Source: an uncultured Methanosarcinales archaeon (GTDB taxonomy: Archaea; Nanobdellota; Nanobdellia; Woesearchaeales; JACPBV01). From it: 13,851 nt of DNA. Under the pieces are notes generated by a model. The model saw only the letters and a program-made list of their open reading frames with translations. It did no database searches and was not told where the DNA came from. Position 1 is the first letter of the stretch; every line of letters begins with the position of its first letter. Below, one piece after another: positions 4,124 to 13,851 of the stretch. Where the stretch lies: positions 1 through 13,851 of the forward strand of contig CAZBLF010000029.1 in NCBI GenBank assembly GCA_964492935.1, written 5' to 3'. The translations under genes were made by a program, and so were the position numbers.

Positions 4124-4190
4124 TCTTTCTCTTTTTACTACTTGATAATGGTACTTATATTTCATAGTGCTCCTGTTATGTTTAGGTACA

Positions 4191-4198
4191 TTTATAAA
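4191..4198 (+). promoter_or_regulatory. Archaeal-type TATA box (TTTATAAA) for the nucleotidyltransferase/kinase-fusion/RLP operon
   Basis: Exactly 30 nt upstream of the ATG at 4221, which supports 4221 rather than 4167 as the start. It begins a block (4191-4217) nearly identical to 259-284. Confidence 0.55.
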
Positions 4199-4220
4199 AA
4201 CAGTTTTGTTCTTTCAGGGG

Positions 4221-4937
4221 ATGAAAGCGTTAATTTTAGCGGCTGGAATGGGAAGTCGATTGATGCCGTATACTGAGGAAACTCCGAAGTGTTTGTTGAA
4301 GGTGGGGGAGGTTCCGATGTTGGCTTTGCAGTTGAAGGCATTGCATGCTATTGGGATTCGCGATATTGTTGTGGTTACTGGTTATTTGAAAGAGAAAGTA
4401 GAGGAAGTTGTTGGAGATCAGGGGAAATGTATCTTTAATCCTGATTTTGAGACTCATGGGATTTTGCATTCGTTTTTAGCTGCTAAAGAAGAGGTGTATG
4501 GCGAGGAATTTTTGTATTTGGCAGGAGATATTGTGTATAATGCTAAGATTCCGTCTTTGATTGCTTCTGGTAAAGGAGATATTGCTATTGGTGTTGATCG
4601 GAAGCCTTGCAACGAGGAGCATTCAAAAGTGTTAGTTGAGAACGGCCAGGTTGTGGAGATGGCTAAGACGATTGTTTGTGGGGAAGCTACTGGTGAATTT
4701 GCTCATATTGCTAAGTTTTCTAAGGAAGGCAGTAAGGCGTTCTTTGATGTGATTGAGGAAACGCTTGCTGAGAAAGATGCGCGTGCGTATATGATGGATG
4801 CGTTGAACAAGGTTCGCGACAAGGGTTTGGTTATGCTTCCGGTGTACACTGACGGGTATGCTCGGATTGAAATTGATTTTATTGAGGATTTAGAGAAAGC
4901 CCGAAAGATGGTGTTTCATGAAACTGACGCTCGTTAG
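4221..4937 (+). CDS. Sugar- or alcohol-phosphate nucleotidyltransferase (LicC/IPCT/PntC-like)
   Basis: MKALILAAGMGSRLMPYTEETPKCLLKV is the G-x-G-(S/T)-R...PK nucleotide-binding signature. It is 238 aa from the ATG at 4221. The track ORF begins at 4167, but that extension would start upstream of the TATA box. It overlaps the next gene by 20 nt. Confidence 0.8.
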   Translation: MKALILAAGMGSRLMPYTEETPKCLLKVGEVPMLALQLKALHAIGIRDIVVVTGYLKEKVEEVVGDQGKCIFNPDFETHGILHSFLAAKEEVYGEEFLYLAGDIVYNAKIPSLIASGKGDIAIGVDRKPCNEEHSKVLVENGQVVEMAKTIVCGEATGEFAHIAKFSKEGSKAFFDVIEETLAEKDARAYMMDALNKVRDKGLVMLPVYTDGYARIEIDFIEDLEKARKMVFHETDAR

Positions 4938-6309
4938 ACACGGTCAGACTGAGGAAAATGCTTCTGGTATTATTCAGGGACAGAGTCGTGGAACGTTAAG
5001 TGAAAAGGGGAAGCTGCAGGCTGCGGAGCTTGGGGAGACTTTGAAGAATCATTCTTTCGATGTGATTATTTCTAGTAGTTCTAATCGTGCCAAGAATACG
5101 GCGTCGGTGATTGGTGAGGGGCATGATGTTGCATTGGAGTTGTCTGATGCAATTCGTGAGAGAAATTTGGGTGTTGCAGAGGGAACTGCTGTAGGGGCGG
5201 CACATGGGTTGATGAAGGAGACGCCGGAAGGTGGGGAATCGTTAGCTCAGGTTAGGGATCGTGCCGAGGCGTTTGCTCGAGAATTGCTTGCAAAAGAATA
5301 TTCTTCTTGTTTGATTGTATCGCATAATGGATTTCTTGCGCATTTGATGGGATTTTTTCAGGCAAAGGCAATTGATTCTTGTTTAGACTTTAAAATTGAA
5401 CATGGTGAAGTTTTGGAGATTGATATTTCTCTCGTTGATGTGGGGAATTTGAATTATGTATACAAGATTACGCTGAATGGAATTACTGGATATTTGAAGC
5501 AGGCTCTGACAGAGTATCGTAAATCGTTTCCTGGTGAGAAAGAGTTGCCGTTGAAAGAGGATCGATTGGCGAATGAGGTTGCTGCTCTGAAGCAATTGAA
5601 TGCTTTGGATGTTTCTGGTTTTACCTTTCCTTCGGTGTTGTCGTATGATGCTGCCCATAATCTAGTGTTGTTATCTGAAATTACGGGAAAAACATTGCTC
5701 TCTTATTTCTTGGAGGGTGTTTTTGATGAAGCGCATGCTTCTGCTGCGGGAGATGCTCTGGGATTGTTGCATGCGGTGGATGCTGCTGGCATTCGAAAGG
5801 ATGATGATGCTTTCTTTAAGGAGATTGTTCGGTTTCGAAGCGTGGTGAGTAGTCATGCGCTAGGTTCGGAGCATCAGAAATTGATTGCTGAACGGTTTGA
5901 TACTATTTTTGCTGATGGTTTTCCAAAATCTTTGTTGATTGGTGATTTTTCTCCTAAGCAGTTGTTGTTATCTGGAGGTTCTGTGGGTGTTGTGGACTTG
6001 GAATTTGCTTGTAAAGGTGATGCGGCATTCGATGTTGGCTTTTTCTTGGCGCACTATGTGCTGGAGGAGATGAAGGGTGCTGATTCTGGTGCGGTAGAGG
6101 GTGCTATGAAGGCCTTTATTGAGGCGTATGGGAAGCATGTTGCTATTGAAGGGATGAAATCAAGGATACTTTTTTATATGGGAGCGGGATTACTCAATAG
6201 AGTCGATGGCACGGTTCGGGGTGGCGATATCAATGAAGCAATTGTCGCTGCTATCAGGGAACGATCGATAAAAATTATTAGTGGGGAAGTAACCTATGGA
6301 ATGGGATAA
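4918..6309 (+). CDS. Bifunctional fusion: N-terminal histidine phosphatase (PGM/cofactor-dependent mutase family) plus C-terminal MtnK-like (APH/choline-kinase fold) kinase
   Basis: 463 aa. Residues 1-~168 carry LVRHGQTEEN (RHG motif), SSSSNRAKNTA (conserved Arg) and IVSHNGFL (second His). From residue ~175, VGNLNYVYKI and GYLKQAL match the MtnK GDGNLNYVF and IIKQAV motifs. IGDFSPKQLLL is the catalytic-loop Asp, VVDLEFACKGDAAFDVGFF the D-x-EF metal loop, and MGAGLLNRVDG matches the MtnK C-terminal helix. Confidence 0.8.
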   Translation: MKLTLVRHGQTEENASGIIQGQSRGTLSEKGKLQAAELGETLKNHSFDVIISSSSNRAKNTASVIGEGHDVALELSDAIRERNLGVAEGTAVGAAHGLMKETPEGGESLAQVRDRAEAFARELLAKEYSSCLIVSHNGFLAHLMGFFQAKAIDSCLDFKIEHGEVLEIDISLVDVGNLNYVYKITLNGITGYLKQALTEYRKSFPGEKELPLKEDRLANEVAALKQLNALDVSGFTFPSVLSYDAAHNLVLLSEITGKTLLSYFLEGVFDEAHASAAGDALGLLHAVDAAGIRKDDDAFFKEIVRFRSVVSSHALGSEHQKLIAERFDTIFADGFPKSLLIGDFSPKQLLLSGGSVGVVDLEFACKGDAAFDVGFFLAHYVLEEMKGADSGAVEGAMKAFIEAYGKHVAIEGMKSRILFYMGAGLLNRVDGTVRGGDINEAIVAAIRERSIKIISGEVTYGMG

Positions 6310-7495
6310 CGACATAACAATAACTTATTTTATCAAGAAGGCGATTGCCACGAAGAAATCGTTGCGCGAGGTTGTAGATACCATTGCAGCAGGGATTAGT
6401 ATTGGGACGCTACAGGTAGCATATGATGCTCATACCACTAAATGGCACGCGGATAAGGCTGCGAATCCTAATGCGTATAAGGCAGAGGTTGAGGAGTATA
6501 GCGTATTGCCGATGGATGAGAATTCTGCTGTTGTGAAAATTAAGGTTTGTAGTGATTTAATGGATTTGAAGCATTGTTCTTTCGCGACGTTGCTCTCTTT
6601 TATTGCTGGCGATGTTTTTGGGACGTCGTATGACGCGGAAGAGATTCGCGTTTTGGATATTGACTTTTCTGAAAAGGCATTGGCTCAGTTTAAGGGTCCT
6701 AAATTCGGAAGTGAAGGTATTCGGAAGATGCTTGGATTGGAGAATAGTGATCGGCCGTTGCAGGCTTTGATTTTGAAACCGAATACCGGTCAGCCAAGTT
6801 CTCATTACGCCGATATTGCTTACAAGGCTGCATTAGGTGGGATGGATTTCATCAAGGATGACGAATTAAACATTAATCCTACGTCGTGTCCGTTTGAGGA
6901 GCGTGTCAAGATGATTTGTGATGCGTTGAAAGAGGCTGAAAAGGAGACGGGCAAGAAAACTATCTATGCTCCAAATATTTCGTTCCGACCTGAATATATG
7001 AAGGAATATGCTCGAAAAGCTATTGCGGCTGGAGCTAGTGCATTGATGATGAATATTGTGTATGTGGGTATGACTGCGGTGCAGATGATTGCTGAGGATC
7101 CGGAATTTAATGTTCCTATTTACGTGCATCGAGCAGGACATGATTTCTTTACGAGAAATGAGGTAGGTATTGCGATGCCGGTTATGACTAAGTTTTTCCG
7201 ATTGTCGGGAGCTGACATTATGTCGGTGGGTCCGGTCTTTGGTGGTTTAGAGACGAAGGAAACGGTTAAGAAGACGTATGAAGCAGTTAATGCGGATATG
7301 TATGGCATTAACAAGTCTCTTGCTGTTGTTTCTCGATCAAGTAAGGATATTGTTCAGGGTACTGTGGATTGGTTGCAGACGAAGAATGTGATGTTCTTGG
7401 CGGATGGCGGAATTTACAACGGTCCTGAAGGTATTACTGCTACAACCAAAGAGATGAAAGAGACGATTGAGAAAGTTCAGATTCAATCTGCTTGA
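6296..7495 (+). CDS. RuBisCO large-subunit-like protein (form IV RLP), not a carboxylase
   Basis: 399 aa. DRPLQALILKPNTGQ...GGMDFIKDDELN aligns by eye to GRPLLGCTIKPKLGL...GGLDFTKDDENV. VHRAGH corresponds to IHRAMH, and RLSGADIMSVGPVFGGLE to MSGGDHIHSGTVVGKLE. The K334 and H327 equivalents are lost. It overlaps the upstream kinase fusion by 14 nt. Confidence 0.85.
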   Translation: MEWDNDITITYFIKKAIATKKSLREVVDTIAAGISIGTLQVAYDAHTTKWHADKAANPNAYKAEVEEYSVLPMDENSAVVKIKVCSDLMDLKHCSFATLLSFIAGDVFGTSYDAEEIRVLDIDFSEKALAQFKGPKFGSEGIRKMLGLENSDRPLQALILKPNTGQPSSHYADIAYKAALGGMDFIKDDELNINPTSCPFEERVKMICDALKEAEKETGKKTIYAPNISFRPEYMKEYARKAIAAGASALMMNIVYVGMTAVQMIAEDPEFNVPIYVHRAGHDFFTRNEVGIAMPVMTKFFRLSGADIMSVGPVFGGLETKETVKKTYEAVNADMYGINKSLAVVSRSSKDIVQGTVDWLQTKNVMFLADGGIYNGPEGITATTKEMKETIEKVQIQSA

Positions 7496-8313
7496 TTTTT
7501 TAATTTTTTATAGTTTTCTTCTGGAAGTAATTGGGATGCTAGGGTTGCGTCGCGTCCGTGGAAGTCGGAGCCGCCTGAAAGTAATAAGTTTAGTTTTTCT
7601 GCTTCCTTTTTTATGGTAGATGCGGAATATTTTTCGAATGCATCTGCACGATAGGGATAGAAGTGTTCTATTGCGTCTCCGCCTGCCTTTTTGAAATCGT
7701 GGATGAGTGTTTTGGCATCGGTATTGCTGTAGACGAGGGGATGTGCTAGTATTGCTAAGCCGCGAGCATTATGAATTGCATCGATTGCTTGTTTGAAGGT
7801 GGTTGTTTGCTTTCTGTTTTTGTAGGCAGGTTGTCCATTGCCGATGAGGGTATCAAATACCTGGTCAGGGGTTTCTAGTTGTTTGTTGTTTTTCATGAGG
7901 ATTGATGCGATGTGTGGGCGGCCGATCGTTCCTTTCGCTAGTTTGTGTACTTCCTCGTACGTTATCTTGTAGCCGAGCTTTTGTAATGCTTGTATCATGT
8001 CTTTCTTTTGTACTATTCTCGCTTTTTGGGCTTTGTCAACGATTTCTAGAATGTCTTTGTGGTTTGGGTCGATGAAGAGACCGAGAATGTGGATATCGGA
8101 GTGTTGTGGATGATCTGCGGTTATTTCGATGCCCGGAACTACGGTGAGTGTTGTGTTCTTGGCTGCTTTTTGTGCAGCTGCGATGCCTGCGGTGGTGTCG
8201 TGGTCGGTTATTCCGATGACATCTAGGCGTTCTTTTAGCGCTGCATCAATTAATTCTTTTGGAGAAAGCTTGCCGTCGGAGGCGGTGGTATGAGTATGGA
8301 GATCGATGCGCAT
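7483..8313 (-). CDS. PHP-domain metal-dependent phosphoesterase (TrpH/YciV-like); candidate 3',5'-bisphosphonucleotide (pAp) phosphatase
   Basis: 276 aa. MRIDLHTHTTASDG is the PHP His-x-His start, followed by ITDHDT, the ILAHP His and GGSDFHG. It is the last gene of the Sat-CysC operon, with only 3 nt between it and cysC. Confidence 0.75.
   Translation of the reverse strand: MRIDLHTHTTASDGKLSPKELIDAALKERLDVIGITDHDTTAGIAAAQKAAKNTTLTVVPGIEITADHPQHSDIHILGLFIDPNHKDILEIVDKAQKARIVQKKDMIQALQKLGYKITYEEVHKLAKGTIGRPHIASILMKNNKQLETPDQVFDTLIGNGQPAYKNRKQTTTFKQAIDAIHNARGLAILAHPLVYSNTDAKTLIHDFKKAGGDAIEHFYPYRADAFEKYSASTIKKEAEKLNLLLSGGSDFHGRDATLASQLLPEENYKKLKNQAD
7496..7510 (+). terminator. Oligo-T tract (TTTTTTAATTTTTTA), a candidate archaeal intrinsic terminator for the RLP operon
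   Basis: It follows the RLP stop codon (7493-7495) directly. The same bases on the other strand encode the Lys-rich C-terminus (KKLKN) of the convergent PHP gene. Confidence 0.35.
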
Positions 8314-8316
8314 GCC

Positions 8317-8832
8317 TTAACAAATTCCCTTGTCTTTTAAAGCTTGTCTTAGTTGTTGTGCTGCTTGTTCTGGTGTTGTGTTTTGGGTGTCTATTGTGAC
8401 TTCGGGTTGCTCAGGTTCCTCGTAAGGTACATTTAATCCTACGAAGTCTTTTATCTCTCCTGATCTGAATTTTTTATAGTGACCTTTGACATCTCGTTCC
8501 TCGCAAATTTCGATTGGGCATTTGATGTAGACTTCGATGAATTTTTTTATCTGATTTCTGGCATATTCTCTAATTGCCTTGGTGGGAGAGATGACGCAGG
8601 CTATGCTCAGGATGTGGTCGCTTGTTAAGAGTGCACAAATATCTGCTACTCTTGTGATGTGCTTGTCGCGATCTTCTTTTGTATAGCCGAGATCCTTAGA
8701 AATGGTTTTTCTGACGATATCTCCATCTAATAGAGCTACCTGGATGTTTTCTTTTCTTAATTGCTCTACTAATAGCTCGGCAATGGTGGATTTTCCTGCT
8801 CCGGAAAGCCCGGTAAACCAGATTGTGGTCAT
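8317..8832 (-). CDS. cysC: Adenylylsulfate (APS) kinase
   Basis: 171 aa. IWFTGLSGAGKSTIA is the P-loop, LDGDIVR the substrate motif, and SPTKAIRE follows. ATGA overlap with sat. Confidence 0.92.
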   Translation of the reverse strand: MTTIWFTGLSGAGKSTIAELLVEQLRKENIQVALLDGDIVRKTISKDLGYTKEDRDKHITRVADICALLTSDHILSIACVISPTKAIREYARNQIKKFIEVYIKCPIEICEERDVKGHYKKFRSGEIKDFVGLNVPYEEPEQPEVTIDTQNTTPEQAAQQLRQALKDKGIC

Positions 8833-9971
8833 ATGAGGACCTCGTGAGATAATTCTTGTGCAACTTCTTTGCGCATGAACTCTTTTGGTGGAATCTCTTT
8901 CTTAGACAACATGTCACGGATGAGTGTTCCAGAGATTTCGATTTGTTCCTCTACAGGATGCGGACACGTCTTTTCTGTTGCGATGGAATCACAGTGTTTG
9001 CAGAAGTAGGGTCCTTTTAGTTTGAGGATTTCAATGCCTAGATCATCGAATTTGTCGGTGAACTCCTGGGCTTCGTACTTTTTGTAAAATGAGCCTACAC
9101 CTGCGTGGTCGCGACCTACAATGAAATGGGTGCATCCGAAGTTTTTACGGATGATTGCGTGGAAGACGGCCTCTCGGGGTCCGGCATAACGCATCTGGGT
9201 AGTGAGTGCCGATAAGATTGCACTGTTTTTCGGATAATAGTGTTCGATTAAGGTTTTGTAGCCGTTGATGACGGCTTCTGGAGTGTAGTCGCCCTTCTTT
9301 TTCCAGCCGATTAGGGGATGGAGTAGGATTCCATCTGTTAATTCTAATGCTGCTTTTTGCAAATATTCGTGTGCACGGTGAGGTACGTTTCTTGTCTGGA
9401 AGCCGGTGATTGTTTTCCAGCCTCGCTTCTCGAACTCTGCTCGGGTTTGTTTAGGTGTTAGTTGTACGCCGGGTACAATTGGATCGGGTTCGCCAATCAT
9501 ATCGATTTCTCCTGCAAGCATGATATTGCCGGAATCGTGAAGCTTTTTTACTCCAGGATGGGTTAGATCTTGAGTTCCGAAAATGGCTTGGGATGCTTCG
9601 GTGAGATTAGCCGTATAGATTTGCTCGAGATGCATCTGGGCAATAAGCTTATCATTTTCGTCGAATAGATTGATGTCGTCGCCCTCCTTGACGTTTTCTG
9701 GTACCTTTTGCAGTGGACAGGTCACCGGAACGGTGAACGGGAGATTGTTTTCTAGTCTCGACTCGTGCAGAATGTTGAGAAAGTCGTTCTGAGTTACAAA
9801 TCCTTGTAGCGGTGAAAAAGCTCCTTGTGCAATATTTGCAATATCTAGGATCGTTTCTCGGCTGATGGTGATTTTGGGTAGTTCGTTTGCCTGTGCGATT
9901 GCCTTTTCTCTTCTTTCTCCGGTGAGTAATCGGTCAATTAATTCATTTCCATGTGGTTTATTTGCTTTCAT
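8829..9971 (-). CDS. sat: Sulfate adenylyltransferase (ATP sulfurylase), short homo-oligomeric type
   Basis: 380 aa. GFQTRNVPHRAHE corresponds to the QxRNPxHxxH motif, and HFIVGRDHAGVG is also present. A C-terminal C-x2-C-x8-C-x-H cluster (FCKHCDSIATEKTCPH) resembles the Cys/His zinc site of Thermus/archaeal-type enzymes. Confidence 0.92.
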   Translation of the reverse strand: MKANKPHGNELIDRLLTGERREKAIAQANELPKITISRETILDIANIAQGAFSPLQGFVTQNDFLNILHESRLENNLPFTVPVTCPLQKVPENVKEGDDINLFDENDKLIAQMHLEQIYTANLTEASQAIFGTQDLTHPGVKKLHDSGNIMLAGEIDMIGEPDPIVPGVQLTPKQTRAEFEKRGWKTITGFQTRNVPHRAHEYLQKAALELTDGILLHPLIGWKKKGDYTPEAVINGYKTLIEHYYPKNSAILSALTTQMRYAGPREAVFHAIIRKNFGCTHFIVGRDHAGVGSFYKKYEAQEFTDKFDDLGIEILKLKGPYFCKHCDSIATEKTCPHPVEEQIEISGTLIRDMLSKKEIPPKEFMRKEVAQELSHEVLI

Positions 9972-11646
9972 TTGTGCCCCCGTGTTGTTTGAAAAATCCT
10001 AGGAATTCATCTACCTTGTGGACTTCCACCATATTGATGATCTTTCGGTGATTAGGAAATACTGCTCCTGCGAGGACGATGGTGTCTTGCTCCTCGATTA
10101 ATTGATTCTTGATACAGGCCATGATTGCCTCCTTCTTTTGCTCGACGGATCCCGAATTATCTATTTCATGCTCGACTTGTAATGGGATGACTCCTCTTAG
10201 GAGTTTCAATCTTCTTACGATTTTTATGTTGCTTGTTAGTGCTATAATGGGGAATGAGCTATTGAATCTCGCTAGCATTCTCGCGGAAAAGCCGCCATGA
10301 GTGATACAGAGGAGCTTGTCGATATGCGTATGCTTTGAGAGATCGATAATCATCTTTGAGCAGGCGTCGCTGGGATCGGTGGACTCGTTATCATTCTCTA
10401 AATCGAGAATTGGCGTTTCCTCCTCGCATTCTTGAATGACTGTTGACATTACTTTGACTGCTTGTTCCGGGTTTGCGCCTATCGCCGTTTCACCGGAGAG
10501 CATGACTGCGGACGCGCCATCCATGACTGCGGACGCGATATCTGCTACCTCTGATTTCTTCGGTAGTGGTTGCGTTACCATCGAATGGAGCATTTCTGTA
10601 GCGACGATGACTGGCTTTGCTCTTTTATTTCCTTCTTCGATGATATGCTTCTGAAGCATAGGGACTTTTTGGAAGGAGACTTCGCTTCCTAGGTCTCCCC
10701 GATCGATCATGATGCCATAGGCTGCTTCGATGATGCCGGAAACATTTTTGATTGCTTCCTGATTCTCTACTTTTGCAATGATTTTGATTGTTGATCCCTC
10801 TAACTTTTTTTCTACCGTTCGAACTTCGTCTGCAGTATTGACGAATGATAGCCCGACGAAATCTACTTGTTCTTTTTTTGCGAATGCTATACACTTGTTT
10901 TCTTTTTCCTGTATAGATTCGCGGCTGAGGATCGCTCCGGGAATATTGACGCCTTTGCCTTCTTGTAGGACTGCATCATGCTGGACGAGGCAGGTTACGT
11001 TGTTTCCATCGATTGATTGTACGGTAATTGCGATTGAGCCGTCATCCATGAGCAACTCTTGCCGAGGTTTGACGTGTTTTGGGAATTCAGGTAGATCGAC
11101 ACCGATAGCATCTCCTTCTGGAGTGGTTGAGAGGATGATTGTGGAGTTGGCTTTGAGGATGCGAGGCTCTTTTAATCCGCGAACGCGTACTTTGGGGCCA
11201 GGGATGTCTAATAGAATAGGAATAGTTGCGTCTACTTCGCGTACTTTCTTGATGATGTCGCTATGTTGTTCGGGATTGCCGTGGGATGAATTTATTCTTG
11301 CTACATCCATCCCTGCATTCTTGAGTTTGGTGATTTCTTCAATGGAATTGGTTACAGGACCGATCGTTGCGATGATTTTTGTCTTCTTGATCATGATTTG
11401 CCTTGTAGATCCGATTTCGGCGAGAATTTCTTTAGTTGTGGCAGACTCGTGATTGAGAACATAGAAGATTGCGTTTCCTAAGGACTCTGCTTTGACTACG
11501 GACTCGTCTTCCAGTTCCTTGAGAATTTTGTGGGCACTTCCTACGCTGATGGAAAGAGTTTTGGCGATTTGATTAATCGTTAATCGGCGAGATGCATTTC
11601 TATCTAGAAACGAAATGATCTTTTGGGTGTTTTTGGAGACTGCCAT
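9958..11646 (-). CDS. Fusion of an N-terminal winged helix-turn-helix domain (~aa 1-80) to a full-length pyruvate kinase (A, B and C domains)
   Basis: 562 aa. The wHTH is LTINQIAKTLSISVGSAHKILKELEDESVVKAESLGNAIFYVL. The PK motifs are KTKIIATIGP, ARINSSHG, DIPGPKVRV, KIIAKVENQEA, IMIDRGDLGSEV, VIVATEMLHSM and VMLSGETAIG, with a C-domain ITHGGFSARMLARF...PIIALT. An internal Met85 (nt 11394-11392) sits at the domain junction. It is the first gene of the sat-cysC-PHP operon, with a 14-nt overlap with sat. Confidence 0.85.
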   Translation of the reverse strand: MAVSKNTQKIISFLDRNASRRLTINQIAKTLSISVGSAHKILKELEDESVVKAESLGNAIFYVLNHESATTKEILAEIGSTRQIMIKKTKIIATIGPVTNSIEEITKLKNAGMDVARINSSHGNPEQHSDIIKKVREVDATIPILLDIPGPKVRVRGLKEPRILKANSTIILSTTPEGDAIGVDLPEFPKHVKPRQELLMDDGSIAITVQSIDGNNVTCLVQHDAVLQEGKGVNIPGAILSRESIQEKENKCIAFAKKEQVDFVGLSFVNTADEVRTVEKKLEGSTIKIIAKVENQEAIKNVSGIIEAAYGIMIDRGDLGSEVSFQKVPMLQKHIIEEGNKRAKPVIVATEMLHSMVTQPLPKKSEVADIASAVMDGASAVMLSGETAIGANPEQAVKVMSTVIQECEEETPILDLENDNESTDPSDACSKMIIDLSKHTHIDKLLCITHGGFSARMLARFNSSFPIIALTSNIKIVRRLKLLRGVIPLQVEHEIDNSGSVEQKKEAIMACIKNQLIEEQDTIVLAGAVFPNHRKIINMVEVHKVDEFLGFFKQHGGTNESK

Positions 11647-11647
11647 A

Positions 11648-11669
11648 TTAGTGAATGATTATTCACTTA
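11648..11669. promoter_or_regulatory. Inverted repeat (candidate operator) directly upstream of the HTH-PK start codon
   Basis: TTAGTGAAT (11648-11656), a gatt spacer, then ATTCACTTA (11661-11669). The core AGTGAAT/ATTCACT is a perfect 7-nt inverted repeat. It lies between the minus-strand TATA (11681-11688) and the ATG (11646). Confidence 0.5.
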
Positions 11670-11680
11670 ATTTGTGCTTG

Positions 11681-11688
11681 TTTATAAA
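11681..11688 (-). promoter_or_regulatory. Archaeal-type TATA box (TTTATAAA, palindromic) for the HTH-PK/sat/cysC/PHP operon
   Basis: 42 nt upstream of the ATG at 11646. The implied ~10-15 nt leader contains the inverted repeat. Confidence 0.45.
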
Positions 11689-11714
11689 GACATCGCTTTT
11701 TGAGACGTTATATC

Positions 11715-11723
11715 ATTCACTTA
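11715..11723 (+). promoter_or_regulatory. Third copy of the 9-mer ATTCACTTA, upstream of the rightward promoter
   Basis: An exact direct repeat of 11661-11669, 54 nt away. It ends 16 nt upstream of the TATA at 11739. Confidence 0.4.
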
Positions 11724-11738
11724 CTATTTTCCCATATG

Positions 11739-11746
11739 TTTATATA
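11739..11746 (+). promoter_or_regulatory. Archaeal-type TATA box (TTTATATA) for the CDP-alcohol-transferase-like/GT4 operon
   Basis: 29 nt upstream of the ATG at 11768. This supports 11768 rather than 11615 as the start. Confidence 0.5.
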
Positions 11747-11767
11747 GCGTGTGCTGCTCATAGGGGT

Positions 11768-12436
11768 ATGGTTAAGATTCCTGCTAAGTATGATCGAAGT
11801 GTGGTGATGCGTGTTTTCGCGCGTCCGGTAGGGAATTTGATGATTCCTCTTTTTATGAAGCTCGGTATTACAGGAAATCAACTTTCGATCTTCAATATCT
11901 TTTTTACGTTGTTTAGTTTTCTGTTGATTGGGACTGATAGTTTAGTCATTGGTGCTTTGTTGTTGCAATTTACTATTATTTTTGATACGATGGATGGTAC
12001 TTTGTCTAAAATGAGAAAGCAGAAGTCGCTGTATGGGCGGTATCTAGAAAAGATTTGGCATAATGCGATTGTTCCTTTCTTGTTCGTTGCGCTTGGATGT
12101 AATGTGACTTTGAACAACGGAGATAGTATGTATTGTTTGATTGGATTCTTCATTACGGGATCGATCTTGGTCGTTAATCTTATTGAATTTATTCGTCGGT
12201 ATACGTTTCAGGTTGCTCCTAAGGCACTGGATGCTGATCAGACGGTGAAATCTGAGAAATCGTTGTTGCAGATTGTGGTGCGAGCTATCGGAGATACTTC
12301 GTACATCTTCATGTACGTGTTGGTGTTTGGATATGCTGGTTACCTGGATATGCTGGTGTTGTTTTACGGAGTCTTTTACGGATTGTTGTTTGTTGTCAAA
12401 TTCTTTCAGTTTCTTGGAAAACCAAAGGGTTTTTAA
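11768..12436 (+). CDS. CDP-alcohol phosphotransferase-like integral membrane protein with a degenerate signature motif
   Basis: 222 aa from the ATG at 11768; the track start at 11615 would overlap the PK gene and both promoters. It is hydrophobic throughout. The motif DTMDGTLSKMRKQKSLYGRYLEKIWH (nt 11984-12061) reads D-x2-DG-x2-SK-x8-G-x3-E-x3-H, so AR is replaced by SK, the third Asp by Glu and the fourth Asp by His. Confidence 0.6.
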   Translation: MVKIPAKYDRSVVMRVFARPVGNLMIPLFMKLGITGNQLSIFNIFFTLFSFLLIGTDSLVIGALLLQFTIIFDTMDGTLSKMRKQKSLYGRYLEKIWHNAIVPFLFVALGCNVTLNNGDSMYCLIGFFITGSILVVNLIEFIRRYTFQVAPKALDADQTVKSEKSLLQIVVRAIGDTSYIFMYVLVFGYAGYLDMLVLFYGVFYGLLFVVKFFQFLGKPKGF

Positions 12437-13515: not shown

Positions 13516-13851
13516 ATGTTATCGTGTAAGGCATTTTTCGAATTACTCGTCAAGGATGTAGGTTTCTTTACAGGTGTTCCTGATTCTTTGCTGAAAGATT
13601 TTTGTGGTTATGTTGCTGATCACGCAGAGAAGCATGTGATTGCTGCGAATGAGGGTAATGCTGTTGGTATTGCAGCCGGATATCATCTTGCTTCGGGTAA
13701 GGTGCCCTTAGTGTATATGCAGAATTCTGGTCAGGGAAACGCGGTGAATCCGTTGTTATCGTTGGCAGATCCGAAAGTGTATGGTATTCCTATGCTCTTG
13801 CTTGTTGGGTGGAGAGGCGAACATGGTGTTGCAGATGAAACTCAACATGTT
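13516..13851 (+). CDS. ppd: Partial CDS (N-terminal 112 codons; runs off the window end): thiamine-diphosphate-dependent phosphonopyruvate decarboxylase
   Basis: Not in the ORF track because it has no stop. My translation is [154 protein letters not shown] and NPLLSLADP are the hallmarks I recognise from Ppd/AepY N-terminal TPP pyrimidine-binding domains. Confidence 0.72.

What the first reader, a model, noticed from the sequence alone, without database searches (positions are those of the whole stretch)
9958..11646. Winged-HTH DNA-binding domain fused to a complete pyruvate kinase
Seen in sequence: about 80 N-terminal residues form a typical wHTH, with recognition helix SVGSAHKILKEL and wing VVKAESLGNAIFYVL. 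An apparently catalytically intact PK follows, with the K/E of KVENQE, the D of DRGDLG, the T of ATEML and SGETA all present. The PRPTRAE segment is changed to PLPKKSE, and the B-domain hinge DTKGPEIR to DIPGPKVR. An in-frame Met85 sits exactly at the junction (nt 11394-11392), so an HTH-less isoform is conceivable. Inference: this may be a trigger enzyme or one-component regulator that reads the PEP/ADP/effector state and controls its own sulfate-activation operon and the divergent operon. PEP is also the precursor of the phosphonate branch encoded at the other end of the island, so a PEP-sensing regulator would make sense.
Basis: partly seen in the sequence, partly recalled or inferred. Interest (0 to 1): 0.7.

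Follow-up and report, generated by a model that had tools for sequence, protein, structure and literature searches.

The report
DNA-binding pyruvate kinase heading sulfate-activation operon
A tiny marine archaeon has joined a DNA-binding domain to an apparently working pyruvate kinase that leads a sulfate-activation operon, and a conserved palindrome over the operon's promoter suggests the enzyme switches off its own operon.

Summary
ORF 9958-11646(-) is an uninterrupted 562-aa protein with a winged-HTH (1-64), a linker and a complete pyruvate kinase (PK + PK_C). The same sequence occurs on contigs from several independent metagenomes. Relatives at 41-51% identity occur almost only in MAGs labelled as DPANN archaea (Woesearchaeota/Nanoarchaeota).

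- **Operator.** An exact TGAAT-N4-ATTCA palindrome (window 11652-11665) lies 23-25 nt after the TATA box, over the predicted transcription start. It follows this wHTH subfamily whatever the fused partner: 64 of 76 metagenome loci carry it upstream, with none in 302 kb of flanks. A second half-site about 54 nt upstream is specific to the PK fusions.
- **PK role.** The PK belongs to a K+-independent subfamily that sits next to sat/cysC in 14 bacterial loci too. In one bacterial operon a different-fold candidate PAP phosphatase follows. One contig encodes a PK-Sat fusion.
The "odd" PK motifs are subfamily traits. Met85 is not conserved.

Best reading: a bifunctional enzyme that regenerates ATP for PAPS synthesis and represses its own operon. 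Ligand sensing and control of the divergent operon are untested. I rate it a new variant of the known enzyme-repressor ("trigger enzyme") kind.

The parts
9958..11646 (-). wHTH-pyruvate kinase fusion gene (562 aa)
   Evidence: Intact ORF. Pfam HTH_24, PK and PK_C. TIGR01064 above its cutoff. Identical protein on contigs from several independent metagenomes.
11455..11646 (-). Winged-HTH domain, residues 1-64; recognition helix at residues 35-47
   Evidence: HTH_24 at 27.2 bits against a cutoff of 21.9. AF2 model pLDDT 88.6 with canonical H-H-H-wing topology. Foldseek best matches are MarR, MepR, SmtB and small archaeal wHTH proteins.
11389..11454 (-). Linker, residues 65-86: a helix (69-78 in the full-length model) followed by a flexible segment (80-84). 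It contains Met85 (11392-11394).
   Evidence: The full-length AF2 model has pLDDT below 50 at residues 80-84. Met85 is conserved only in P0001-P0003.
9958..11388 (-). Pyruvate kinase proper (A/B barrel 87-397, C domain 427-543) of the K+-independent type (I148-P149-K152-V155)
   Evidence: K117 signature literature: PMC8835810, PMC4284704.
11652..11665 (.). Operator O1: perfect palindrome TGAATAATCATTCA, ending 5 nt before the start codon and beginning 23 nt after the TATA start. This places it over the predicted transcription start.
   Evidence: It is exact in most PK-fusion promoters and in 64 of 76 promoters of wHTH relatives, with no exact copy in 302 kb of flanking DNA.
11681..11688 (-). 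TATA-like box TTTATAAA of the wHTH-PK operon promoter, preceded by a purine-rich BRE-like stretch
   Evidence: Conserved position in the anchored promoter alignment. That it works as a promoter element is inferred.
11714..11719 (-). Auxiliary site O2: half-site TGAATG, 54 nt upstream of O1 (about 5 helical turns), lying between the two divergent TATA boxes
   Evidence: Present at 53-55 nt in 9 of 13 distinct PK-fusion promoters, against 3 of 63 wHTH-nucleotidyltransferase promoters.
8829..9971 (-). sat, ATP sulfurylase; overlaps the PK stop by 14 nt
   Evidence: Pfam ATP-sulfurylase and PUA_2. TIGR00339 above its cutoff. Follows the PK in every fusion locus.
8317..8832 (-). cysC, APS kinase; overlaps sat by 4 nt
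   Evidence: Pfam APS_kinase. TIGR00455 above its cutoff.
7483..8313 (-). PHP-family phosphoesterase, a probable 3',5'-bisphosphate nucleotide (PAP) phosphatase
   Evidence: Pfam PHP. NF041577 at 176.6 bits and RNase RNM at 185 bits, both below their cutoffs. PDB 2yb1 at 7e-26. Conserved after cysC in L007, L008, L009 and L012, and present further downstream in L013.
11768..12436 (+). Divergent CDP-alcohol phosphatidyltransferase-family gene. Its own TATA-like box lies at 11739-11746, 29 nt before the ATG.
   Evidence: Pfam CDP-OH_P_transf. The 222-aa gene call is from L002. It is a recurrent neighbour of the module. Whether the wHTH-PK regulates it is unknown.

Best explanation
The gene encodes a bifunctional protein of an ultra-small (DPANN, Woesearchaeota-like) marine archaeon.

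**Enzyme role.** The C-terminal 475 residues are a catalytically competent, K+-independent pyruvate kinase. It belongs to a subfamily that works with ATP sulfurylase, APS kinase and a PAP phosphatase as a PAPS-supply module. By converting PEP + ADP to pyruvate + ATP, it would recycle the ADP made by APS kinase and keep ATP available for both ATP-consuming steps. This is the same job PK does in in-vitro PAPS synthesis.

**Regulator role.** The N-terminal 64 residues are a winged-HTH. The domain comes from a DPANN-specific family that normally heads wHTH-nucleotidyltransferase (MNT/HEPN-type) modules. It recognises the palindrome TGAAT-N4-ATTCA. In this operon the palindrome (O1) lies over the predicted transcription start, 23-25 nt after the TATA box. 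A PK-fusion-specific half-site (O2) lies about 54 bp upstream, on the other side of the TATA box. The oligomeric PK would present at least two wHTH pairs. Binding at O1, perhaps bridged to O2, would block RNA polymerase recruitment and repress wHTH-PK-sat-cysC-PHP.

**Status of each step**
- Shown here: the fusion, domain integrity, operon conservation, and the co-occurrence and geometry of the operator.
- Inferred: DNA binding, repression, PK activity and ATP recycling.
- Speculative: that the substrate or effector state of the PK changes DNA binding.
For: **Fusion and domains**
-.
- All ten catalytic positions are invariant in the 9 fusion, 14 sat-linked bacterial and 61 other PKs compared. 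They align to solved PKs.
- I/L113, P114 and K117 match the K+-independent class (abstracts of PMC8835810, PMC4284704 and PMC5501398).

**Operon conservation**
- sat follows the PK in all 13 distinct fusion loci.
- cysC, and the PHP gene in most loci, follow wherever the contig is long enough.

**The PK is a partner of sulfate activation**
- 15 of 76 unfused PK loci have sat directly adjacent, and 10 of these also have cysC. Of these, 14 are bacterial MAGs (labels include Parcubacteria, Elusimicrobia, Acidobacteria, Omnitrophota, Chloroflexia and Planctomycetota). The fifteenth, L070, is an archaeal PK that lacks the wHTH.
- The 14 bacterial sat-linked PKs all fall in the sister group of the monophyletic fusion clade.
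- The Elusimicrobia operon reads cysC-sat-PK followed by an Inositol_P-family gene. That is the fold of CysQ-type PAP phosphatases, so the same four functions recur with a phosphatase of a different fold.
- P0139 is a single PK-PK_C-PUA_2-ATP-sulfurylase polypeptide followed by cysC.
- In vitro, PAPS synthesis nearly fails without PK/PEP, because ADP traps APS kinase in a dead-end complex (PMC9885120).

**Operator**
- The exact palindrome occurs once per locus, just after the TATA box, in the window, L008, L009, L013 and L014, and nowhere else in about 1 Mb of loci.
- The expected chance of one in the 60 nt upstream is about 1-3e-4 per locus.
- In an independent metagenome sample of wHTH relatives, 64 of 76 loci have it within 150 nt upstream. 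There are 0 exact copies in the other 302 kb. It is present in 14 of 15 clusters at 70% identity.
- The recognition helix ISVGSAxKILKELE is nearly invariant across the PK-fused, NTase-fused and stand-alone forms.
- TATA-to-O1 spacing is 23-25 nt in 7 PK-fusion loci.
- O2 lies at 53-55 nt in 9 of 13 PK-fusion promoters, against 3 of 63 NTase promoters.
- Several relatives have SD-like GGAGG/GAGG motifs between O1 and the start codon, which fits a transcription start at O1.
Against: - No experiment supports any step. DNA binding, repression and PK activity are all inferred from sequence.
- Taken alone, the palindrome in this window is not statistically remarkable: 1 hit at up to 1 mismatch against 1.03 expected. 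The case rests entirely on cross-locus conservation.
- Two fusion loci (L010, L015) lack the palindrome and carry direct CATTCA repeats instead. L007 and L012 have degenerate copies.
- Paralogous wHTH-MNT proteins with the same recognition helix could be the true binders of O1, or compete for it.
- No sulfotransferase or other PAPS consumer was recognised in any archaeal locus.
- The PK could also be the cell's only housekeeping PK; whole genomes could not be inspected.
- The PK-Sat fusion rests on a single contig. PK and sat abut or overlap in this family, so a one-base indel could create it.
- The tetramer/looping idea depends on the positions of the N-termini in a PK tetramer, which these tools could not model.
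Confidence: 0.6

Rival explanations
1. The PK domain is mainly a ligand-sensing and oligomerisation module of a one-component regulator, as in enzyme-derived sensors such as BzdR or GfcR. Its catalysis would be irrelevant or lost.
For: Enzyme-derived sensor domains fused to HTHs are well documented (PMC3602430 and PMC10838023). The fusion clade also has clade-specific C-domain motifs, such as DNSxSVEQKK and GAVFPNxRKIxNM. These could form a new effector pocket.
Against: All ten catalytic positions are invariant across the fusion clade, and the protein passes the PK equivalog cutoff. Unfused orthologues sit in the same sat/cysC operons in bacteria, where they cannot be regulators. That points to an enzymatic role.
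Confidence: 0.12
2. The PK is simply the organism's housekeeping glycolytic PK. It sits beside sat/cysC by chance, and the wHTH gives plain negative autoregulation with no link to sulfate activation or to metabolite state.
For: A 2026 preprint finds PK in only a minority of Nanobdellota genomes. In Pacearchaeales and Maxwellarchaeales it occurs without most of upstream glycolysis (10.64898/2026.05.13.725050). A single PK per genome is therefore plausible. No PAPS consumer was found nearby.
Against: PK-sat adjacency holds in all 13 distinct fusion loci and in 14 bacterial loci with many different phylum labels. It persists when the PAP phosphatase is replaced by one of a different fold, and one contig encodes a PK-Sat fusion. 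Genes overlap by 14 and 4 nt in the window. Conservation on this scale is not expected by chance.
Confidence: 0.15
3. The palindrome is bound by other proteins, for example the paralogous wHTH-MNT antitoxin-like proteins. The wHTH of the PK fusion would be vestigial or would act in protein-protein contacts.
For: Relatives with a near-identical recognition helix are far more common as wHTH-MNT proteins (70 of 80 sampled loci), and they carry the same palindrome.
Against: The wHTH of the PK fusion is conserved, with invariant recognition-helix residues, across 41-51% overall identity. The palindrome occupies the same promoter position in nearly all fusion loci. A PK-specific second site has evolved. 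It is not known whether wHTH-MNT genes share a genome with the fusion.
Confidence: 0.08
4. Two isoforms are made: the full-length regulator-enzyme, and an HTH-less PK translated from Met85.
For: An in-frame ATG sits exactly at the ancestral PK N-terminus (M-I-K-K-T-K-I), at 11394-11392.
Against: Met85 is present only in P0001-P0003. The other fusion proteins in the alignment have F, L or I there. No conserved ribosome-binding or promoter element was noted upstream. The simplest reading is a relic of the pre-fusion start codon.
Confidence: 0.1

Closest known systems
Bifunctional enzyme-repressors ('trigger enzymes' with their own DNA-binding domain): BirA (wHTH + biotin-protein ligase), NadR, PutA (from my own knowledge of these families)
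   Same: An N-terminal (w)HTH is fused to a catalytically intact metabolic enzyme. The protein is predicted to repress the operon of the pathway it serves by binding a palindromic operator at the promoter.
   Different: The enzyme is a pyruvate kinase, and I found no report of such a fusion. The promoter is archaeal (TATA/BRE). No co-repressor ligand is known. Regulation is inferred, not shown.
Enzyme-derived one-component regulators: BzdR (HTH + shikimate-kinase-like; PMC3602430) and archaeal GfcR (HTH + PRTase-like; PMC10838023)
   Same: An enzyme fold has recruited a DNA-binding domain. GfcR is an archaeal example.
   Different: As I recall those cases, the enzyme-like domain acts as an effector sensor. 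Here every PK catalytic residue is retained, and unfused orthologues act in the same operon context.
K+-independent (Lys117, PykA-like) pyruvate kinases (PMC8835810, PMC4284704, PMC5501398)
   Same: PK barrel plus PK_C. It has K117 with a hydrophobic residue at 113 and V at 120. It passes the TIGR01064 cutoff.
   Different: It carries an 86-residue wHTH-plus-linker extension. It has P114 rather than the usual Q114. It belongs to a sat/cysC-linked subfamily that also shares R341K.
wHTH-MNT / HEPN (toxin-antitoxin-like) modules of DPANN archaea found here (e.g. L133 2998-4039)
   Same: They have the same wHTH subfamily (40-55% identity, near-identical recognition helix). The same TGAAT-N4-ATTCA palindrome sits just downstream of the TATA box.
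   Different: The partner domain is a minimal nucleotidyltransferase with a HEPN neighbour, not PK. They lack the O2 site 54 nt upstream.
Sulfate-activating complexes that couple an energy-providing subunit to ATP sulfurylase (CysD/CysN GTPase with CysC; from my own knowledge)
   Same: The idea is the same: an extra nucleotide-handling enzyme is genetically and physically tied to ATP sulfurylase and APS kinase to drive an unfavourable reaction.
   Different: Here the sulfurylase is the homo-oligomeric Sat type, and the partner is a PEP-dependent kinase rather than a GTPase. Coupling is inferred only from gene order and one fusion.

Membership tests
Pyruvate kinase (EC 2.7.1.40; Pfam PK + PK_C; TIGR01064) | PK barrel (A/B) domain and C-terminal alpha/beta domain present at family thresholds | tested here: met
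   PF00224 at 296.5 bits, PF02887 at 70.7 bits. TIGR01064 at 417.5 bits against a cutoff of 306.4.
Pyruvate kinase (EC 2.7.1.40; Pfam PK + PK_C; TIGR01064) | Catalytic and metal/substrate residues (rabbit numbering R73, N75, D113, R119/120, K269/270, E271/272, D295/296, T327/328, S361/362, E363/364) | tested here: met
   All are present in the window protein and invariant in the 9 fusion loci. They align to 2e28 and 8edt.
Pyruvate kinase (EC 2.7.1.40; Pfam PK + PK_C; TIGR01064) | PEP + ADP -> pyruvate + ATP activity | not testable with these tools
   Needs an enzyme assay.
K+-independent pyruvate kinase class | Lys at position 117, hydrophobic residue at 113, L/I/V at 120 (PMC8835810, PMC4284704) | tested here: met
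   I148 (113), K152 (117) and V155 (120). Position 114 is P rather than the usual Q.
Winged helix-turn-helix DNA-binding domain | Sequence match above the family threshold and H1-H2-H3-wing topology | tested here: met
   HTH_24 at 27.2 bits against a cutoff of 21.9. AF2 model pLDDT 88.6. Foldseek to MarR, MepR and SmtB with TM 0.66-0.83.
Winged helix-turn-helix DNA-binding domain | Sequence-specific DNA binding | not testable with these tools
   There is only indirect support: the palindrome co-occurs with the wHTH subfamily in 64 of 76 loci.
MarR family proper | Family-level sequence match, and the N- and C-terminal dimerisation helices that flank the wHTH (a protein of about 140 aa) | tested here: not met
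   MarR_2 at 25.0 bits is below its cutoff of 27, and MarR at 11.6 is below 24.6. The domain is only about 85 aa and covers roughly half of MarR-family targets (TMt 0.4-0.5). It is MarR-like in fold only.
Trigger enzyme (an active enzyme that also controls gene expression according to its substrate or effector state) | Catalytically active enzyme | tested here: inconclusive
   Sequence predicts activity. No assay was done.
Trigger enzyme (an active enzyme that also controls gene expression according to its substrate or effector state) | Direct control of gene expression | tested here: inconclusive
   A conserved operator lies over the predicted TSS of its own operon. Binding and repression are not demonstrated.
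Trigger enzyme (an active enzyme that also controls gene expression according to its substrate or effector state) | Regulatory output depends on the metabolite state of the enzyme | not tested
   No computational handle exists. It needs EMSA or in-vitro transcription with and without PEP, ADP, ATP, AMP, PAP, APS and PAPS.
Sat/CysC-linked PK subfamily (defined here) | PK gene directly adjacent to sat (and usually cysC), placement with the other sat-linked PKs in the tree, and the I/L113-P114-K117 and K341 residues | tested here: met

The most novel reading that the evidence does not exclude
This reading has two parts.

**A PEP-powered sulfate-activation module.** PK acts as the energising subunit, comparable in role to the CysN GTPase. 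The module exists across many bacterial phyla and in DPANN archaea.

**A true pyruvate-kinase trigger enzyme in the archaeal version.** The PK tetramer carries two wHTH pairs that clamp operators O1 and O2 on either side of the TATA box. The substrate or effector state of the kinase (PEP, ADP/ATP, or AMP/PAP from the PAPS cycle) changes the geometry of the tetramer and releases the DNA. PAPS synthesis would then be switched on only when PEP-derived energy is available.
Probability: 0.25. Interest if true: 0.8.

Novelty: new variant of a known kind. Interest (0 to 1): 0.62.

Why it matters
- **Testable regulator in uncultured archaea.** DPANN archaea are uncultured and their gene regulation is almost unknown. 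This result gives a regulator, its predicted operator (TGAAT-N4-ATTCA), the promoter geometry and a target operon. All can be tested with purified protein and short DNA.
- **New PK architecture.** PK joins the short list of central metabolic enzymes that carry their own DNA-binding domain. Public databases label these proteins only as "pyruvate kinase".
- **PK as part of PAPS supply.** The wider finding may be more useful than the fusion. A PK subfamily is genetically tied to ATP sulfurylase, APS kinase and a PAP phosphatase in many bacteria and archaea. This suggests that cells use PEP-driven ATP recycling to push the unfavourable sulfate-activation steps, as biochemists do in vitro (PMC9885120).
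- **Orphan PKs.** It could explain why some reduced genomes keep an apparently orphan PK (10.64898/2026.05.13.725050).
- **Engineering.** It could guide the design of PAPS-regenerating pathways for enzymatic sulfation.

Tried and rejected
- **Bacterial promoter/terminator scan** of 7300-12000: no enrichment over shuffles, and not relevant to an archaeon.
- **Palindrome count in the window alone**: not significant (1 hit at up to 1 mismatch against 1.03 expected). I therefore relied on cross-locus conservation.
- **Split (two-gene) version of the fusion**: the stand-alone wHTH genes P0121 and P0124 are followed by membrane or secreted-protein genes, not by a PK.
- **PAPS consumer**: no sulfotransferase or PAPS reductase was recognised in the window or the archaeal loci. 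The only hint is a weak, below-cutoff sulfotransferase match in the Elusimicrobia operon.
- **Literature**: searches for an HTH-PK fusion, a PK/sat/cysC cluster or a PK trigger enzyme returned nothing relevant. This covers only the open-access library that the tool holds.
- **Assembly chimera or frameshift**: rejected because of the identical ORF in independent assemblies and the continuous ORFs in divergent relatives.
- **MarR membership**: rejected (see the membership test).
- **The 'Methanosarcinales' label of L014**: I did not take it at face value. It is a 7.9-kb MAG contig whose PK and promoter are of the DPANN fusion type, so mis-binning is likely. I did not test this.
- **N-terminal positions in a PK tetramer**: could not be examined, because only monomer prediction is available and no coordinates could be fetched.

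Full report

Yes. The minus-strand ORF 9958..11646 is uninterrupted and encodes 562 aa.
- Pfam finds HTH_24 at residues 5-52 (27.2 bits, cutoff 21.9), the PK barrel at 87-397 (296.5 bits) and PK_C at 427-543 (70.7 bits).
- The PK part passes NCBI's equivalog model TIGR01064 (417.5 bits against 306.4). It aligns end to end with solved PKs such as 2e28 and E. coli PykF. No solved PK covers residues 1-85.
- An AlphaFold model of residues 1-86 (pLDDT 88.6) is a canonical winged helix.
- Its best structural matches are MarR, MepR, SmtB/CzrA and small archaeal wHTH proteins, at 12-24% identity.
- In the full-length model (pLDDT 83) the wHTH joins the PK barrel through a helix (69-78) and a low-confidence segment (80-84).
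- The identical protein is carried by 8 contigs, and the six shown come from six different samples. One cluster member is a Tara Oceans 0.1-0.22 µm mesopelagic sequence. An assembly chimera is therefore excluded.

**2. How common is the fusion, and where does it occur?**

- A search of 5.8 billion proteins found seven other cluster representatives with 42-51% identity. Most are 560-564 aa. Scores then drop sharply to ordinary 475-aa PKs.
- An exhaustive HMMER pass over 1.84 billion cluster representatives found only three that cover the query from about residue 2-6 through to about 552-554 (P0003, P0133, P0134). More than 4,200 PK relatives score E ≤ 1e-30.
- In one genome per GTDB species, full-length matches occur in MAGs labelled Ca. 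Woesearchaeota or Nanoarchaeota. One further match is a 7.9-kb contig labelled Methanosarcinales, which I suspect is mis-binned.
- Public sources name all of these simply "pyruvate kinase".
- In a neighbour-joining tree of 84 PK domains, the nine fusion loci form one clade. This fits a single origin.
- With the metagenome loci added, there are 13 distinct fusion loci.

**3.

- DIPGPKVR and PLPKKSE are not peculiar to this protein. The closest unfused PKs have D-[IL]-P-G-x-K-x-R and P-x-P-T-K-[SA]-E.
- By group, I/L113, P114, K117 and K341 (rabbit numbering) are invariant in the 9 fusion PKs and in the 14 sat-linked bacterial PKs. Other PKs mostly have T113, K114, E117 and R341.
- Lys117 with a hydrophobic residue at 113 and L/I/V at 120 is the published signature of K+-independent PKs (abstracts of PMC8835810, PMC4284704 and PMC5501398).
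- All ten canonical catalytic positions are invariant in every group.

**4. Met85**

- The codon is at 11394-11392, as stated.
- The Met is present only in P0001-P0003. The other fusion proteins in the alignment have F, L or I at that position.
- M-I-K-K-T-K-I mirrors the N-terminus of unfused PKs (for example MKKTKIV in PykF). I read it as a relic of the pre-fusion start codon. An HTH-less isoform is possible but has no comparative support.

**5. Operon context**

- In the window the gene overlaps sat by 14 nt. sat overlaps cysC by 4 nt, and a PHP-family phosphoesterase follows 3 nt later.
- sat and cysC pass their equivalog cutoffs.
- The PHP protein matches both 3',5'-nucleoside bisphosphate phosphatase (176.6 bits) and RNase RNM (185 bits), each below its cutoff. 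It also matches PDB 2yb1. A PAP phosphatase role is therefore probable, not proven.
- In all 13 distinct fusion loci the PK is followed by sat. cysC, and the PHP gene in most loci, follow wherever the contig is long enough.
- The islands also encode glycosyltransferases, flippases, nucleotidyltransferases and CDP-alcohol phosphatidyltransferase-family proteins. In two cases they hold a cytidylyltransferase-PEP mutase fusion plus phosphonopyruvate decarboxylase. The window's last 336 nt encode the N-terminus of that TPP enzyme.

**6. The PK is a partner of sulfate activation beyond the fusion**

- I ran tblastn with the window's proteins against all fetched loci. sat lies directly beside the PK in 15 of 76 unfused PK loci, and 10 of these also have cysC.
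- Of these 15, 14 are bacterial MAGs. Their labels include Parcubacteria, Binatia, Elusimicrobia, Acidobacteria, Omnitrophota, Chloroflexia and Planctomycetota. The fifteenth, L070, is a Woesearchaeota PK without the wHTH.
- Twelve of the 15 are among the 17 best-ranked unfused matches.
- In the tree, the 14 bacterial sat-linked PKs all fall in the sister group of the fusion clade. None falls in the other large branch.
- The Elusimicrobia operon (L019) reads cysC-sat-PK and then an Inositol_P-family gene. That is the fold of CysQ-type PAP phosphatases. Next come an ORF with weak, below-cutoff sulfotransferase similarity and genes for a nonulosonic acid (NeuB, CMP-sugar synthetase). The same four functions thus recur with a phosphatase of a different fold.
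- One metagenome protein (P0139, 859 aa) joins PK, PK_C, PUA_2 and ATP-sulfurylase in a single chain and is followed by cysC. It rests on one contig. PK and sat abut in this family, so an indel artefact cannot be excluded.
- There is a biochemical rationale. In vitro, PAPS synthesis almost fails without a PK/PEP system, because ADP locks APS kinase in a dead-end APS-ADP complex (PMC9885120).
- I infer that this PK recycles ADP to ATP for the two ATP-consuming steps of sulfate activation.

**7. The operator**

- Just upstream of the start codon lies the perfect palindrome TGAATAATCATTCA (11652-11665).
- On its own this is not significant: 1 hit at up to 1 mismatch against 1.03 expected.
- Across loci it is. 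The exact motif TGAAT-N4-ATTCA occurs once per locus, always between a TATA-like box and the fusion gene, in L008, L009, L013 and L014 as well as the window. It occurs nowhere else in the 91 loci (about 1 Mb) held at that point.
- The chance of one in the 60 nt upstream is about 1-3e-4 per locus.
- L007 and L012 have degenerate copies at the same place. L010 and L015 have two direct CATTCA repeats instead.

**8. The motif follows the wHTH, not the PK**

- A profile of the wHTH alone finds short DPANN proteins with 40-55% identity and a near-identical recognition helix (ISVGSAxKILKELE).
- A metagenome scan found 214 relatives. Of the 80 loci fetched, 70 are wHTH fused to a minimal nucleotidyltransferase and 6 are PK fusions.
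- In the one NTase locus I examined (L133), a HEPN gene follows. That is a toxin-antitoxin-like layout.
- Of the 76 loci with at least 100 nt of upstream sequence, 64 carry the exact palindrome within 150 nt upstream. There are 0 exact copies in the other 302 kb of those loci.
- The palindrome is present in 14 of 15 clusters at 70% identity, so redundancy does not explain the result.
- This is strong comparative evidence that this wHTH recognises TGAAT-N4-ATTCA and that its genes are autoregulated.

**9. Promoter geometry**

- O1 starts 23-25 nt after the first T of a TTTATAWA box in seven PK-fusion loci. The anchored alignment of nine promoters shows the same layout, with a purine-rich BRE-like stretch before the box.
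- Archaeal TATA boxes are centred about 26-27 nt upstream of the transcription start (my own knowledge). O1 should therefore straddle the start site.
- In relatives with longer leaders, SD-like GGAGG/GAGG motifs lie between O1 and the start codon, which fits this placement.
- Binding at that position is the classical way archaeal repressors block RNA polymerase recruitment (my own knowledge: MDR1, LrpA, Phr).
- A second site, a TGAATR half-site, lies 53-55 nt upstream of O1 (about five helical turns, on the far side of the TATA box) in 9 of 13 PK-fusion promoters. It occurs at that spacing in only 3 of 63 NTase-fusion promoters. In the window it is at 11714-11719.
- PKs are normally tetramers, so the fusion could present two wHTH pairs and bridge O1 and O2. 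This is an inference and could not be modelled here.

**10. The divergent gene**

- The divergent CDP-OH_P_transf gene most likely starts at 11768 (the 222-aa call in L002). Its own TATA-like box is at 11739-11746, and O2 lies 20 nt upstream of that box.
- In L008 and L009 the upstream gene is co-directional. O2 is therefore a feature of the PK promoter, and control of a divergent operon is not a conserved property.

**11. Verdict**

- The finding is real.
Its specifics need revision:
  - The PK oddities are subfamily traits.
  - Met85 is probably a relic.
  - Metabolite sensing is untested.
- The PK is primarily a working member of a widespread PAPS-supply module that had not been noted in the literature I could search.
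- I rate it a new variant of a known kind (enzyme-repressor or "trigger enzyme"), with interest of about 0.6.

Noticed in passing
window 6296-7495 (+), with 4918-6309 (+) and 4167-4937 (+): A RuBisCO-like protein scores below the cutoff of every named RuBisCO/RLP family (type III 198 against 497 bits; MtnW 179.5 against 409). It sits next to a histidine-phosphatase + APH (methylthioribose-kinase-like) fusion and a nucleotidyltransferase, inside a glycan/lipid island. This is an unusual setting for an RLP.
   Followed up: partly
window 11768-12436 (+); also L008 12258-13001, L009 12262-13074, L010 5354-6761, L013 9524-9943, L015 5355-5711, L103 429-749, L176 208-975: A CDP-alcohol phosphatidyltransferase-family gene is a recurrent neighbour of the PK-sat-cysC module in archaeal loci. 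No sulfotransferase or other PAPS consumer was recognised in any of them. What the activated sulfate is used for remains unexplained.
   Followed up: partly
L176 1046-3625 (protein P0139): A single 859-aa polypeptide joins PK, PK_C, PUA_2 and ATP-sulfurylase, and is followed by cysC. It would be a Rosetta-stone link between PK and Sat, but it rests on one contig, so an indel artefact is possible.
   Followed up: partly
L070 5992-7674 (Ca. Woesearchaeota MAG): A 560-aa protein has a PK barrel (residues 3-310), no wHTH and no PK_C. It has instead a hydrophobic C-terminal region of about 230 aa with no Pfam match. It is transcribed divergently from sat.
   Followed up: partly
L098-L175 (e.g. L133 2998-4039): The same wHTH subfamily is mostly fused to a minimal nucleotidyltransferase. 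In L133 a HEPN-domain gene overlaps it (a toxin-antitoxin-like pair). Nearly all of these loci carry the same TGAAT-N4-ATTCA palindrome just after a TATA box. This looks like an abundant autoregulated module family in DPANN archaea.
   Followed up: partly
L019 4348-12939 (Elusimicrobia MAG): A bacterial operon reads cysC-sat-PK-CysQ-like, then a weak sulfotransferase-like ORF, a GFO/IDH oxidoreductase, a CMP-sugar synthetase, an SDR and NeuB. It is probably a cluster for a sulfated nonulosonic-acid glycan with its own PK.
   Followed up: partly
protein P0190 (607 aa): A PK has an N-terminal extension of about 100 aa with a weak, below-cutoff response-regulator receiver match (20.1 against 30.2 bits). 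It could be another regulatory PK fusion.
   Followed up: no
L013 ~5995-6003, L111 ~542-550, L014 ~5990-6001: Several fusion genes appear to start at ATC or ATT, or have no canonical in-frame start. This probably explains the N-terminally truncated gene calls P0006 and P0008 (527-528 aa) in public data.
   Followed up: partly
window 13516-13851 (+) and beyond (L001 1892-8131): The window ends inside a TPP enzyme (TPP_enzyme_N, 57.4 bits). Beyond it, L001 carries an Fe-alcohol dehydrogenase, two sulfatase-family proteins and a cytidylyltransferase-PEP mutase fusion. This is a phosphonate-decoration branch that shares PEP with the PK.
   Followed up: partly
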